64,000 nucleotides of DNA from Octopus vulgaris (Eukaryota). The translations under genes and the position numbers were made by a program. The notes beneath the pieces are model-generated. The model searched no databases, was not told where the DNA came from, and saw nothing but the letters and a program-made list of their open reading frames with translations. The stretch spans positions 11,346,001-11,410,000 of the forward strand of contig OX597818.1 in the NCBI GenBank assembly GCA_951406725.2. The letters run 5' to 3'. Within the stretch, counting starts at the first letter, position 1. Each line of letters starts with the position of its first letter. Shown in pieces: positions 3,942-30,512 of the stretch.

Positions 3942-4817
3942 TGAGGTCTGATCAATAAGTATCCAAGTTGTTGCCATAGTAACGAAGCTAAAGCACAGAG
4001 GGAAGTAACTTTGCAAAGATTCACCTGCACACTAAGTTTTAATGTTCTAGCTCACTTCTGCTGTTTACTGCAGCACTTGGAAGGAAGGTGTGTAGCATGT
4101 GACTGTCGCATTGACCATGACAGAGAAAGTTGTCTTGACGATACCTGCTCAGACGTCTATGCAAAGTTGGAGAAAGTGTATAGAGAGGGGTGTATGAGAT
4201 GCACACAAGTGTACAAGTGGTTCAGATATTTTTAAGATGGCCAAAAATTGTCCATATTGATGAACGTTCTCTTGAGACGTGCAATCACTAGAACTAAGAA
4301 AAACATCACAGTTGTGATTGCAGCTGTGAGGGGAAATCGTCGACTTACAATCCATGAGTTATCTGAGGATGTGCAGATTAGTTACAGTTCAGTTCAGTCC
4401 ATTATCACTGAAGATTTGGGTATGAGACACGTGTCTGCCAAGTTTGTGCCAAAACTGCTTCAAGCTGACCAAAAAGACTCTCGGGTTTCAGTTGCACAAG
4501 AGTTCCTTGATTGTGTTGAGAATGATGTAGACTTTTTGAAAACGTTGCATAGGCTTCTGAGCAGGTCTCGCCAAGCTTTTGGCAAAATTTGATGCAGATT
4601 CTCCGCTCAGCATTCTCTGTCATGGTCAATGCAACGATCACATGCTACACACCTTCCTTCCAATCACTGCTGTAAACAGCAGACGTGAGCTAGAGCGTTA
4701 AAACTTAGTGCACATGCACAGCAGAGTTCAAGGTTAATCTGTGACAAGCAGTTTTACTCTGCATGCTTTAGCTTTATTATTATGACAACAGTCTGGATAC
4801 ACATTCATCAGATCATG
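3942..4817. mobile_element. Non-autonomous mariner derivative with two 5' ends (foldback)
   Basis: Inverted arms 3942-4169 / 4541-4817 begin with a mariner-type TIR (GAGGTCTGATCAATAAGTATCC). The + strand encodes a transposase HTH region (QVYKWFRYF; RRLTIHELSEDVQISYSSVQSIITEDLGMRHVSAKFVPKLL). The - strand arm encodes MTENAERRICIKFCQKLG. No DD34D catalytic domain is present. Confidence 0.9.
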
Positions 4818-21316: not shown

Positions 21317-22034
21317 ATTGGCCTATGACCTCTTTAAAATATGGCAGGGAAAAGTCTGGATTGTCTTCCTTTGCCAATGGCTATCGGCTTCCAGCCATAC
21401 TGCCATCGTTTGACTGTGATGGAGAGCAATAGGGGATTGTCTCCCTCTCCCGTTAGCTATCAACTTTTGACAATTCCCAAAAGGCCAGCAGAAATCTCCT
21501 AAAATGCAAACATGACCCAAAAACTTCTGTTCTGGTGTTAAGTATAGCCCTTGGTTTGAGTGAGTCCCTTAGGATTCTCATGCATTCAGCTATGCATAGC
21601 TTGCAGCATTTCGTCTTGTTGATGTAGGGGCCTGAGTTTTCGAGAATTTTCCATGAGATTGAGTGTGGAACTCCGTTGTCTTTTAGTTGCCAAACGTGGC
21701 TGGCCAGTGATGTTGCATATCTCCTTTCTGGAACTCTGATAGAGGATCCATGGTTCCAACCATACTTAACCCCAGAATGGAGATTTTGGGGCCATGTTTG
21801 CATTTTTGGGGATTTATGCTAGCCTTTTGGTAACTGCCAGAAGTTGGCAGCTAACAGGAGGGAGAGACATTCACCTATTGTTTACCATCAAAGCTGAATG
21901 ATGGCAGTACGGTCAGAAGTTGATAGCCATTAGCAAAGGGAGACAATCCAAACTTTCTCCTCCATATTTTAATGAGGTCATAGGCCAACAGGTCTTGGGG
22001 GTCTGACAATATACAATAAAGTTAATCCTTTTAT
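21242..22034 (-). mobile_element. 5'-truncated Penelope-like element with an inverted copy of its 3' end
   Basis: ORF 21453-21803(-) has the GIY-YIG C-terminal signature TSLASHVWQLK..ISWKIL..Y..CKLCIAECMRI..LNTRTEVFGSCLH. Inverted arms about 21272-21546 / 21761-22034. A hammerhead sits in the 3' UTR. Confidence 0.88.
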
Positions 22035-22800: not shown

Positions 22801-25800
22801 AGGGGAAAAGTAAAAAGAAAAAGAAAATGCACATTAGATATAAAAAATAAAGGCTTTTTTAAGAAAAGCAAAGTTATATACATACAATTAGATGACTTGA
22901 GGTGGAATTATCAAGTATAAAAATTATTATTATGAATCATTATAGAGAATCAAATTCATACCGGTATCATCAGAGCTGATCACTGGCTTTGAATGAACAC
23001 CAATTTCCAAACAGTGTTGGGTCTAATAGTACCTAAGTGAAAAGATTACATGCAAGGAAAGTAAGCAGTTCTGGAAGTGATGCAATTAAGGTAGATATAA
23101 ATACTGGAATATGAATGGTGTATGGGATATATGGATATTAATGAGATTATTGGTGGTATTGGTAAGGCTAGTAGTGTCCTGTATTAAGTTGTGTGTTCAT
23201 GTTGAGTTGTGGATGATATTTATTAATGAAAGTTGCCTCTTTATTTATTTTGCTGTACTGAGGTATTCTGTGAACATTGATAAAAAGGGAAAATTAGGAA
23301 GTTCAGTTTAAGGTTCCCAGCACATCTTTCTATGTTCTCACTGACCTCTGTCTGTCTATATTGTGGGTGGCGGATTTGTTCTTTGTGAAGAGCTATTCTT
23401 CGTCAGAGTGATATTTCTGTTTGGCCTCAGCAGGTAATAGCATAGATTAAGTTTTCAGAAGCACAGGTGAACTTTGATTTTATCTTAAATATTTCACCTT
23501 GTTTGAAGTGAAACTCTGTACCCTCCAAAAGATGAGGGCATGTGCCACAGGCTGCATTTTTTCACTTTTGGTTTCATTGTTAATGAATATAGTCTTGCAC
23601 TGGTTAATATTTTTTCAATGATTTCTGTTGCATTTTGCTCTTGATAATTTTGTGTGAGCCTAAAATTTTGTTCATTGTTTTATCGCCAGTGAGAATGGGT
23701 AGATTTTGGATGATGATGTTTAAGGCCTCTTCGTTTCTAGGGTTGTGTGTGGAGATGTATGGGAGTATTTTTAAATCTGGTGTAATATTTCGGTTAACTT
23801 CCCTTAATGTTTGTGTCTATTTCCTTTGCTCGTTTAATCCCATCATTTATTAATGATGTTGGGTAATGTCTCCTGATTAGTGTTGATTTAAGTTCAAGGA
23901 GTCTTCATTCATGAGTATTGATATCTGAAACTATGGTACAGATTCTTTTCACTAGCTTATAAGGTATATTAATTTTTATATGTTTGGGGTGGCATGAGTT
24001 GAATAATAGGTATTGTTTTGAATCTATGGGTTTATAGAAGTTGTCCATTTTGATGTGGTTATTGATTATTTTAATTAGAATGTCAAGAATAGGAAGTTTT
24101 TTTATTGCTGTGTTCCATGGTGAATTGTATGTTGCTATTGATATTGTTGAGCATTATTTTGAAATCAAGGACTTTGTCCATGCTATTGTTCCAAATTATA
24201 AAGCAATCATCTAAGTATCTCTTCCAGTTCTCCTTTAAATAGCAATGAAATGAGGTACCATATTTTTGTAGTGATGATTGGTATATTTTAAGTTCTAGGT
24301 AACCCATTACAAGGTTCACAATCACTGGTGCAGCTCGAATTCCCATTCCAATTCCACATTTTTGTTGATAGTAAACTATATCGAACATGAAATAGTTGTT
24401 CTGTAGGATAAATTTCAGTGCTGCAATTATGAAGTTGTGGTTGATGAGTCCTGGGTTCTCTTCTGGGTATTTTTCTAGCCAGAAGGAGATTGCTTCTATA
24501 CCATAATCATGTGAGATACTGGTGTACAAGTTCACCACATTGAATGATACTAACAGGGTTCCTTCATTTATTGTTTTCAGGAGTTAAGCATGTCTAAATC
24601 ATCCCTGATGAAGCTTTTCACATATTTTTTAAATGGTTTGAGTTAGATGTTGAGGAAATTGCTCAAACGGTGGGTTTCACAAGCAGGGCCACCAGCCAAG
24701 ATGGGTGTTAGTTTGAGGTCAGTAGTGGGAGAATCTTTGCAAGCTTTAGAAATATGTAGATATTTGTGTATTTTAGGTAATCCATAGAATAGACTTGGTC
24801 TGTATTTAAAATTTGATAAATAATCATTTTTTTTTTTAATGAGGCCCTTTCCATGTATTTGAAGTAAGGAGGATAAGATTTTAAGTGTCTTCTGTGGGTT
24901 ATAGCGCTCTATCTTCTCATAGTAAATATTGTTTTCCAGCATGGAGAGTATTTAATTTTCATAGTACTCTGTGTCCATCACTACTACCACACTTCCTTTA
25001 TTGGCTTCTTTAATGGTCAGGCTTATATCATTTTTTAACTTGATTAGCTTTTTCCATTCATTTGTGTTGAAGTTGGATTTAATTCACTGTTTTTGTTGGG
25101 TATTAAATGGGAAATTGGTAATGTTTCACAAAAGTCATCAAGTGCTTTATTTCTGCCTTTTGTAGGACAATATTCGCTTTTGTTTTTTTGCTATTGAGTC
25201 ATCTTCACTGGTGTAGTTGTGAAGTGCTTCTGTGAGGCACAATTTTCGGCAAAAATCCATAGTGTTATCCTTGATTTCATTTGGGTTCAATCTGCAAGGG
25301 GTTGGTGTGAACTTCAAACCGCTTGCTAGAATTTTTGTTTGTGTAATACTTGGGATTTTCTTTGATAAGTTGATATTTCCAGTTGTTCATGTATATTTTG
25401 TTCCATTTCACATCTCTGTTTCTCTGATTTAGGTCTAAAAAATGGTTGTAGTAGGTGGATTGTTGTGGAAAGTCTTGTATTTAGTTTGGTGTGGAATAAT
25501 TGGGTGTAAAGTGCATCTGTGGTAGTATATTTGTTGTGGAGTGACTGTGTTGTGGACTAGATTGTGGTTATTATGAGGGTTGTTATATTGTCTATGGTTG
25601 ATGTGGTTTGGGTTAAATTTACTGCTAATTTTGTAAAGCAGACAGAGGGTGAAGTTATGTTGCTTAGTTAGGTTATGTCTAGTTGAATGCTTGAAGTATC
25701 CATGTTGAAAGTCAAGTCTCGGAGGCAAATTTTTCCATTGTCTGTCAGGCGATGGAGGTAGATTGGTAGGTAATGGTTCTTGAAAGTTTTGGTTAGTCTG

Positions 25801-29020: not shown

Positions 29021-29598
29021 TATGAGGATAAGCCTTTCAGTAACTGCAGTTTGTTTATAATTATTTTTCTTGATGGAATATTTCTTGCCTACATATCACT
29101 AAATAGTGTCTCACTCTAATCACTATGGCATACGTATGACCTCCATATTTCAATTAGGAAAATCAGTAATCCCTTTTCTGTGGGCAGCAGGTGCATCAAT
29201 AGTTAAAATCCATAGAAGGCTTTCTGTACAGTATGGAAACAGCTTTATGCTGCATGTCTATGTATAGTTTGCAAAATGGCTGCATAAGAAACTATTTGGT
29301 CGCATATATCAAGAAGGAACAGGATACTTGATCCCTTCCTATTCTGATGACAGCATTAAAAGAGTCCAAGATATGATTCCGTTCAACAGACAGGTAATTA
29401 TAGATGAGATGTCAAAAATTATACAAGTTAATCATGGTTCTGCCTATCAAACCGTCCACAACAGAGTTGGCCATAGTTAATGCATTGCAGCAACTAGAAG
29501 GAGACCACATTTAGTGATACACATGCTACTAATCTTTCTACCTTAAAAGAATAAAAAGAAAAGTGCATTGCGAATAATTACTGGTCCATTTTTGTTAC
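29021..29598 (+). mobile_element. Internally deleted, decayed mariner
   Basis: SVIPFLWAAG..IHRRLSVQYG..SIKRVQDMI..NRQVIIDEM..IQVNHGSAYQTVHNRVG is a mariner N-terminal HTH region; weak TIR remnants at both ends. Confidence 0.75.
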
Positions 29599-30388
29599 AT
29601 GCATACACCCGCATGAATATTGTTGCTTTTACTCTCTTGCATTTATTATAACCATGCTATGCTTAAAATATTGGTTCTTCTTCAGTCACCATATTTAAGC
29701 AGTGCTTTGTCTAGTAAGTACCTAGATGGATGACTGCTTGAAATTTTTGAGTACTATAAGTGCCTTTATAGAATAAAGAATTTGTCAATGTTGCTGTGAT
29801 TATGATGATAGCAGCAAGCTGATGGAACTATTAGCATGCCAGACAAAATGTTAGCAGAATTTTACCTGCTTTTATTTTCCTGAGGACTACTCTGCCTTTC
29901 ATCTTTATGGGGTCGATCAAATAAGGACCAATTGAGCTCTGGAGTCAATCTAATCAACATGTCTTGTGCTATATTAGAAAGGATGATTATTAGTATTAAG
30001 ACAACAAGCTGGCAGAATCATTACCTTCCAAGTGGACAAATGGCATTTCATCAATCTTTACATTCTGAGTTCGTATTCTTCTGAGGTTGACTTTGCCTTT
30101 CATTCTTTTAGGGTTGATAAAATAAGTATCAGTTTAGTACTGGGATTGATGTTATCACCTTACCCCTCCCCAAAATTGCTGGCTTTATACCAAATTGTGA
30201 AACCATTATTATTGCTACTACTTCTACTGCTGCTTATTTTTTCCTGACATATCAATAACAGTTATGTATGGTGGTGTAATATTTTTTTTTACAATTTGGA
30301 CATCACAGTCTTTCCTGAGATTGAAGTATATGTGTATATATATGTATATGTATATATGTATGTATGTATATATATATAGTCCATTCTA

Positions 30389-30440
30389 GCAAAAACTGTC
30401 CGATGAACGGCAACGGGAAACTCAGAGTAACAGGTTTTGT
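30389..30440 (+). ncRNA. Minimal hammerhead ribozyme motif (U4C variant) in a short insert between (TA)n arrays
   Basis: GCAAAAACUGU CCGAUGA ACG GCAA CGG GAAA CUC A GAG UA^ ACAGGUUUUGU; stem I pairs 10/11, GCAA-capped mini stem II, palindromic stem III. Confidence 0.75.
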
Positions 30441-30464
30441 TGAATTTTCTGCTGCTTTAAATAA

Positions 30465-30512
<48 letters not shown>

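What the first reader, a model, noticed from the sequence alone, without database searches (positions are those of the whole stretch)
30379..30470. 90-bp insert between two (TA)n arrays that is almost entirely a minimal hammerhead
Seen: stem I AAAAACUGU/ACAGGUUUU, core CCGAUGA (U4 to C), a 2-bp stem II capped by GCAA, GAAA, palindromic stem III CUC-A-GAG and a GUA cleavage triplet, followed by AATAAA. Known: PLE and retrozyme minimal hammerheads have tiny palindromic stem III and cleave as dimers. Inference: a very short TA-targeting ribozyme retroposon or PLE end. It lies sense to the candidate host exons, so it could affect the pre-mRNA if active.
Basis: partly seen in the sequence, partly recalled or inferred. 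Interest (0 to 1): 0.75.

Follow-up and report, generated by a model that had tools for sequence, protein, structure and literature searches.

The report
Ribozyme stub of a Penelope retrotransposon
This 90-base insert is one of about ten thousand short copies of the hammerhead-ribozyme end of a TA-repeat-targeting Penelope-like jumping gene, likely made when the element's enzyme copied only the front of its own RNA, and its ribozyme is predicted to cut weakly or not at all on its own.

Summary
The hammerhead-shaped motif is real and at the stated coordinates. It is not a free-standing mini-retroposon. It is the pLTR segment of a Hydra-clade Penelope-like element (PLE): a 3.43-kb unit with intact 710-711-aa RT/GIY-YIG ORFs elsewhere in the genome, inserting in (TA)n. 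The stem-III motif has 14,287 exact genomic hits (control 2). U4C is not decay of this copy: 5,131 of 9,884 cores carry C4, fixed in older ORF-linked subfamilies, while the subfamily with intact ORFs has U4. Copies mostly sit as inverted pairs; 47 of 48 pairs join one arm ending 37 nt after the cleavage site to one ending 108 nt after it. The window holds a solo +37 arm. 5' ends pile up 42-51 nt before the cleavage site, and only 2 of 124 arms begin at it, so templates were mostly uncut. Likely mechanism: reverse transcription starts inside the 5' leader and runs off the capped RNA end. Stems are conserved but show no real covariation within the family. Cleavage is untested, and no host exon was found. 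Verdict: new member of a known kind, with useful mechanistic statistics.

The parts
30326..30378 (.). left target microsatellite, impure (TA)n/(TATG)n
30379..30379 (+). G matching neither the TA flank nor the element (which has T here); candidate copy of the RNA cap (inferred)
30380..30466 (+). pLTR segment of a Hydra-clade PLE, positions -49 to +37 relative to the hammerhead cleavage site; subfamily B; solo tail-less arm
   Evidence: median 0 mismatches to 15 B-type arms over 58 nt
30388..30399 (+). 5' strand of extended stem I (11 pairs, one A.G mismatch)
30400..30406 (+). core CCGAUGA with U4C, fixed in subfamilies B, B' and C
30407..30416 (+). stem II: A.G mismatch, two pairs, GCAA loop (GGAA and an A-U closing pair in the oldest subfamily)
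30417..30429 (+). GAAA, palindromic stem III ACUC-A-GAGU, cleavage triplet GUA (predicted cut 30429/30430)
30430..30441 (+). 3' strand of stem I
30460..30466 (+). AATAAAG, the fixed tail-less end (+37), inferred first RT start site; in other arms it runs on through a 71-nt tail to ACTCCGG (+108) and, in full-length copies, into the 5' UTR and ATG
30467..30468 (+). TT between element and TA array (extra T's seen in 11 of about 120 tail-less junctions)
30469..30510 (.). right target microsatellite (TA)21

Best explanation
The insert is a solo, tail-less copy of the hammerhead-bearing pLTR of a (TA)n-targeting Hydra-clade Penelope-like retrotransposon, likely made by reverse transcription that started inside the element's 5' leader and ran off the capped RNA end, and its ribozyme is predicted to be nearly silent here. 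Shown: identity with the pLTR of ORF-bearing elements; two fixed 3' ends (+37, +108); one of each in 47 of 48 inverted pairs; a pile-up of 5' ends at -51 to -42; C4 fixed in older subfamilies. Inferred: (1) the GIY-YIG domain cuts both strands of (TA)n; (2) the two DNA ends prime RT, one at +37 and one at +108 (about 75%); (3) most template RNAs start near -46 to -50, so both cDNAs run off after about 85 and 155 nt and are joined head to head by microhomology, and long copies arise only when the downstream pLTR is used (about 60%); (4) here only the +37 arm was kept and joined back to TA, with a G copied from the cap (about 40% for the G); (5) the template was uncut at the ribozyme site, so cleavage is not part of insertion (about 80%). 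The hammerhead probably works, if at all, as a protein-assisted or dimeric ribozyme in element RNA.
For: Full-length copies read pLTR(HHR)-tail-5'UTR-ATG. L146 is a tandem with period 3,430 and two 710-aa ORFs; L147 and L148 are C4-type pLTR-ORF-pLTR copies. RWK, DKT, CxCX5C (CNCKNESSC in L147/L148), CKLC and CRH motifs match the Hydra definition in PMC8557442 section 11. 47 of 48 pairs are tailed plus tail-less, none tail/tail or tail-less/tail-less. 40 of 124 5' ends lie in 10 nt (-51..-42) against 6 in the next 49 nt upstream, which hold more 4-bp palindromes. 105 of 124 arms span the cleavage site and 2 start at it. Internal RT initiation at two sites bounding the tail, and no need for HHR cleavage, were shown in vitro for an Anolis PLE (PMC11167929). 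The TSS lies in the pLTR of Penelope and Chlamys-3. G precedes CCATTC in 36 of 51 non-templated junctions and in 4 of 7 TA-joined solos.
Against: No RNA evidence for a start site was obtained. Many of the 36 G's can be supplied by the partner arm, so the cap signal rests on 4 of 7 cases. The commonest 5' end (-43, 13 of 124) is a CTAG palindrome. Frangieh et al. saw no strand difference in RT start in vitro. The unit is 3.43 kb whereas Hydra elements are 'generally' under 3 kb. Pfam and PDB gave no hit for the ORF, so domain calls rest on motifs read by eye, and no tree with reference Hydra proteins was built. Several of the 28 'solo' arms show a diverged partner upstream, so solo counts are too high.
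Confidence: 0.8

Rival explanations
1. Same element, but the insert is simply a 5'-truncated copy of the downstream pLTR: RT starts at the 3' end of a full-length RNA and stalls or is joined at the base of stem I, with no transcription start there.
For: 5' truncation is the usual PLE pattern. The pile-up coincides with the outer end of an 11-pair stem I (pair probabilities mostly 0.9-1.0) and with a CTAG palindrome.
Against: Tailed and tail-less arms stop at the same place despite different lengths. Only 9 of 124 ends fall between -52 and -470 while 13 go beyond. RT usually stalls on entering a helix, not on leaving it (own knowledge).
Confidence: 0.3
2. The short copies are a self-propagating non-autonomous family (SINE- or retrozyme-like) transcribed from short genomic copies and mobilised by the Hydra proteins.
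For: 102 of 124 arms are confined to the last 51 nt before the cleavage site or less. Penelope's promoter is internal. Animal retrozymes derive from pLTRs (bioRxiv 10.64898/2026.07.22.740005).
Against: No head-to-tail monomer arrays among the sampled loci. Each subfamily seen has ORF-linked copies with the same diagnostic letters. A tail-less solo such as this one ends at the first RT start site.
Confidence: 0.12
3. The C4 hammerhead self-cleaves a host pre-mRNA at 30429/30430 and affects the host gene.
For: All other core positions are canonical, and U4C keeps enough activity for a viroid in vivo (PMC3088659).
Against: Stem III cannot form as drawn in a monomer. Stem II has probability 0.09 because CCG of the core pairs with CGG. 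Metazoan PLE hammerheads cleave poorly even as dimers. No host exon was identified, and no second copy of this family lies in the window.
Confidence: 0.05

Closest known systems
Hydra clade of C-terminal EN+ PLEs (Craig et al. 2021, PMC8557442), e.g. Hydra-2_aMil, Hydra-1_aJap, Hydra-1_oBim
   Same: Single RT + GIY-YIG ORF with RWK, DKT, CxCX5C, CxxC and CxH; (TA)n target; type I minimal hammerhead in the pLTR. Hydra-2_aMil has the same stem I core (CUGU/ACAG) and stem III (ACUC-x-GAGU-A); a mismatch at the base of stem II is common in the list (File S2).
   Different: Unit 3.43 kb; stem II of only two pairs plus a GNRA loop (shortest listed: three); C4 in half the copies (all 26 Hydra rows listed have U4, which their descriptor required). 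Hydra-1_oBim has a different hammerhead, and this family's ORF start, stem III and tail strings are absent from the supplement text.
Poseidon PAc of Anolis carolinensis (Frangieh et al. 2024, PMC11167929)
   Same: Hammerhead near the ORF start; two fixed ends bounding a tail; AT-rich target; copies made from uncut RNA.
   Different: Different PLE clade. The tail here is 71 nt and lies wholly in the 5' UTR, with the ATG about 70 nt beyond it. Strict one-of-each use of the two ends per insertion was not described in the parts read.
Minimal PLE hammerheads (Cervera and de la Pena 2014, PMC4209133)
   Same: Palindromic tiny stem III, dimer-type architecture, thousands of dispersed truncated copies, some as close inverted pairs.
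   Different: No G10.1-C11.1 pair, much shorter stem II, and U4C (their reported core variant was U3-A8).
Non-LTR (animal) retrozymes
   Same: Short, non-coding, pLTR-related sequences with a type I hammerhead.
   Different: Retrozymes are head-to-tail tandem monomers. These are dispersed inverted pairs or solos that match the autonomous element base for base.

Membership tests
Hydra-clade PLE | single ORF with RT and C-terminal GIY-YIG endonuclease | tested here: met
   711-aa ORFs in L066, L071, L074 with GAYDGAELC, YRDDGL and GVVY...YTG; motifs read by eye, Pfam and PDB silent
Hydra-clade PLE | N-terminal RWK motif and DKT in place of DKG | tested here: met
   RRLRWKAFFF and NSDKTRN
Hydra-clade PLE | CxCX5C linker | tested here: met
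   CNCKNESSC in the C4-type copies L147 and L148 and in 12 of 65 matches; the second C is F in 44 of 65
Hydra-clade PLE | CxxC and CxH around conserved E and N; CCHH absent | tested here: met
   CKLC...EK...N.RSE...CRH; absence of CCHH judged by eye
Hydra-clade PLE | insertion into (TA)n | tested here: met
   109 of 124 arms
Hydra-clade PLE | pLTR partial tandems, inverted 5' copy, tail at one end | tested here: met
Hydra-clade PLE | canonical hammerhead in the pLTR | tested here: inconclusive
   canonical core in the subfamily with intact ORFs; U4C in this copy and in 5,131 of 9,884 cores
Hydra-clade PLE | RT phylogeny groups with reference Hydra families | not tested
   reference sequences could only be read in the supplement, not loaded
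Active hammerhead ribozyme | conserved core C3 U4 G5 A6 G8 A9, G12 A13 A14, A15.1-U16.1, H17 | tested here: not met
   all present except U4 (C here); U4C is a known weaker natural variant
Active hammerhead ribozyme | three helices supported by covariation | tested here: inconclusive
   92.5% of cells paired, but only 1 of 16 pairs has a two-sided change, no more than shuffles; related elements keep the shape with other letters
Active hammerhead ribozyme | site-specific self-cleavage | not testable with these tools
   bench assay needed
Non-LTR retrozyme | head-to-tail tandem monomers with no coding parent sequence | tested here: not met
   dispersed inverted pairs and solos; sequence collinear with the autonomous PLE
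Non-LTR retrozyme | abundant circular RNA | not testable with these tools
   no RNA reads were examined

The most novel reading that the evidence does not exclude
This family records the PLE insertion mechanism at genome scale. Each event uses both cut strands of a TA repeat, one primed at +37 and the other at +108 of the RNA, and most events copy only the capped 5' leader, which explains the inverted pLTR, the one-sided tail and the flood of 90/155-bp stubs. In addition a U4C hammerhead was kept through successive autonomous masters (and in a second, unrelated 10,000-copy family) before changing to U4, so C4 is a working or deliberately damped natural state of PLE ribozymes that standard descriptors miss.
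Probability: 0.45. Interest if true: 0.65.

Novelty: new member of a known kind. Interest (0 to 1): 0.42.

Why it matters
The single insert is ordinary. The family is useful because the origin of inverted pLTRs and tails, and the role of the hammerhead, are stated open questions for PLEs (PMC8557442, PMC11167929). Intact ORFs, about 10,000 young copies, two sharp 3' ends used one per strand and a sharp 5' boundary give precise predictions for an in vitro system and for CAGE data. Natural C4 and U4 versions of one ribozyme allow a direct test of whether cleavage strength matters for mobility, and show that CUGANGA-based searches would miss about half of this family's hammerheads.

Tried and rejected
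Rfam scan: no hammerhead family at E<=10, only repeat-driven hits. Folding z-score uninformative. U4C as private decay: rejected. Cleaved RNA as template: rejected, 2 of 124 arms start at the site. AATAAA as the cause of the tail-less end: unlikely, since the end is 1 nt after it and half the arms read through. U4-A11.1 / C4-G11.1 'covariation' (45 of 45 and 22 of 22 rows by hand count): a single subfamily transition, absent in subfamily C, so not counted as evidence. Within-family covariation: not above shuffles for two-sided changes. A search meant to read out 5' junctions was biased by its first letter towards long copies and was not used for counts. Host exons: none by Pfam among 51 selected ORF segments; short exons would be missed. 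Sequencing runs: no RNA holder listed on record; no reads were laid, so expression, RNA ends and the empty site remain open. Hammerheads behind the window's other endonuclease relic: 2 descriptor hits in 30 loci, neither shown to belong to that family. Earlier scan findings: none. Lunse et al. on PLE hammerhead variants is not held; it may already report C4 variants.

Full report
Observation. The described letters are all present at the stated places, between an impure TA array (30326-30378) and a pure one (30469-30510). The predicted cut falls at 30429/30430; positions below are relative to it. Rfam returned no hammerhead family at E<=10, and the 90-mer folds no better than shuffles (z +0.65), so the motif had to be judged from copies.

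Copies. The window lies in a 2.8-Gb assembly; that the host is an octopus is my inference from size and repeat content and comes from no call. A BLAST-type search gave 57 matches among 40 scored candidates. A 17-mer over stem III has 14,287 exact hits (reversed control 2), a pattern downstream of the cut site 13,064 (control 0), and a pattern spanning stem I to stem III 9,884 (control 1). These count arms, not insertions.

Parent element. Hits lying kilobases apart in inverted orientation enclosed RT/endonuclease ORFs. Of 30 loci fetched with an RT probe, L066, L071 and L074 hold 711-aa ORFs, and upstream they read hammerhead, AATAAAG, 71-nt tail, about 70 nt, ATG. L146 is a tandem of period 3,430 with two 710-aa ORFs. 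The protein has RWK, DKT, a CxCX5C linker (CNCKNESSC or CNCKNENSC in 12 of 65 matches including the C4-type L147/L148; C changed to F in 44), CKLC and CRH, the features that define Hydra PLEs in PMC8557442 section 11. Pfam and PDB gave no hit, so these are motif readings. A metagenome relative at 45% identity has a hammerhead in both pLTRs with different stem letters and ends in (TA)n. The paper's File S2 (part 2 of 59 of the supplement read, plus two term searches) lists 26 Hydra hammerhead rows, all U4; Hydra-2_aMil shares stems I and III with this family, and Hydra-1_oBim differs. This family's ORF start, stem III and tail strings were not found in the supplement text.

Position 4. C3-C4 is present in 5,131 of 9,884 cores. 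My hand count of the first 100 rows gave 45 A-type (all U4), 22 B-type (all C4), 6 B' (5 C4) and 27 C-type (23 C4). In 66 arms long enough to score, deviation from the column majority was 8.4% (C, 15 of 15 C4), 3.4% (B', 8 of 10), 0.9% (B, 15 of 15) and 1.3% (A, 25 of 26 U4); the window copy has a median of 0 mismatches to B over 58 nt. C4-type copies are joined to the 5' UTR and ORF (L111, L116, L133, L134, L140), and L147/L148 are full pLTR-ORF-pLTR. In a 15-row RT tree nine rows form a 100/99 clade in which every hammerhead seen is U4 (none was seen for L054 and L065); the C4-linked copies fall outside it, but the root hangs on one long branch. U4 is therefore probably derived. A second, unrelated (TA)n family has a C4 hammerhead in 80 of the first 100 rows (hand count) of 10,767 hits. 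U4C is known from a viroid, with much lower in vitro activity (PMC3088659, passage).

Structure. On 36 arms (35 chosen from the 45 distinct blocks, preferring ones with longer 5' ends, plus the window) 92.5% of cells pair, but only 1 of 16 pairs changes on both sides (395 of 500 shuffles reach that). Subfamily differences fall mainly on N7, the GNRA loop, position 11.1, loop III, the stem I mismatch and position 4, which fits constraint but is not covariation. In the window copy stem I is stable, stem II has probability 0.09 because the core's CCG pairs with CGG, and the stem III palindrome forms a -7.4 kcal/mol duplex between two molecules. No second copy of this family lies in the window.

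Insertion anatomy. I analysed 124 arms from 90 loci taken from the first hits on contig C1; a few listed places were not fetched, and four loci were first picked for wide spacing. 96 arms form 48 inverted pairs: 47 join a tailed arm (+108) to a tail-less arm (+37), one has an intermediate end, and none is like with like (about 2e-13 under independent choice, hand calculation). 28 arms scored as solo (20 tailed, 8 tail-less), an overcount because several show a diverged partner. In 8 pairs the tailed arm stops at +25 or later, near the other start site. 105 of 124 arms span the cleavage site and 2 begin within -2..+3. With six natural references, 5' ends number 40 in -51..-42, 6 in -100..-52, 3 in -470..-101 and 13 beyond. 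G precedes CCATTC in 36 of 51 non-templated junctions and TCCATTC in 10 of 22. In the 52 of those 73 that I inspected many G's can come from the partner arm; among 7 joined straight to TA, 4 have G (the window among them), 2 A and 1 C. Reading a 5' G as a copied cap rests on my own knowledge; a search found no paper with all terms.

Mechanism. The anole PLE protein cuts and extends both strands, starts RT at two internal sites that bound the tail, and does not need hammerhead cleavage (PMC11167929, parts 1-2 of 4). Penelope's TSS is in the pLTR (PMC2377424 and PMC8557442 passages). I infer that each insertion primes once at +37 and once at +108, that most templates begin near -46..-50 so that the cDNAs run off, and that the window kept only the +37 product. 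The main rival is ordinary truncation at the base of stem I. Metazoan PLE hammerheads cleave weakly even as dimers (PMC4209133, parts 1-2 of 4; PMC6765202 passages), so an effect of this solo C4 copy on a host RNA is unlikely, and no host exon was found among 51 ORF segments.

Novelty. Hydra PLEs, their hammerheads, TA targeting, one-sided tails and an octopus Hydra family are published. Searches showed no report of this family, of U4C fixed in a PLE, or of strict one-of-each ends. The library lacks most subscription papers and Lunse et al. (title seen only in a reference list), Repbase was not available, and the retrozyme preprint was read only as abstract and section 14, its supplements being closed. 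Verdict: new member of a known kind, interest 0.42.

Noticed in passing
G000 genome-wide; e.g. L307-L318: A second, unrelated ~190-bp (TA)n-flanked family with a hammerhead (CCGACGA core, 4-bp stem II, ACGU stem III): 10,767 exact hits, 80 of the first 100 with C4, and a shared 5' start in several copies. Probably another PLE stub; parent not sought.
   Followed up: partly
window 21453-21818 (-): Relic of a Hydra-type GIY-YIG endonuclease of another, older family; 17,083 first-look candidates, best relatives 60-78% identical.
   Followed up: partly
window 24083-24951 (-), probably extending from about 23244 to 25386: Degraded PLE-type reverse transcriptase (RVT_1 E=1.5e-4, below cut-off).
   Followed up: no
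window 3945-4592 (+) and 29268-29477 (+): Tc1/mariner transposase relics (weak HTH_Tnp_Tc3_2 hit for the first; the second judged by eye).
   Followed up: no
L157 and L106 (C1 near 5,392,730 and 4,122,390): The two arms of one inverted insertion differ at subfamily-diagnostic letters (loop GGAA versus GCAA; position 11.1), hinting that two RNA molecules serve one insertion.
   Followed up: no
intact subfamily A ORFs (L066, L071, L074): The second cysteine of the CxCX5C linker is F in most young copies, yet TA targeting persists.
   Followed up: partly
L195-L224: A very homogeneous young A-type variant with changed letters just upstream of the 5' pile-up, often in kilobase-long inverted or tandem insertions; the search that found it favoured long copies.
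   Followed up: no
L256 and L299; L145; L043: Further canonical hammerheads of other families with palindromic stem III.
   Followed up: no
window 29880-29960 and 30100-30160: Short dispersed repeats of the kind common in this genome flank the insert; label recalled, not tested.
   Followed up: no
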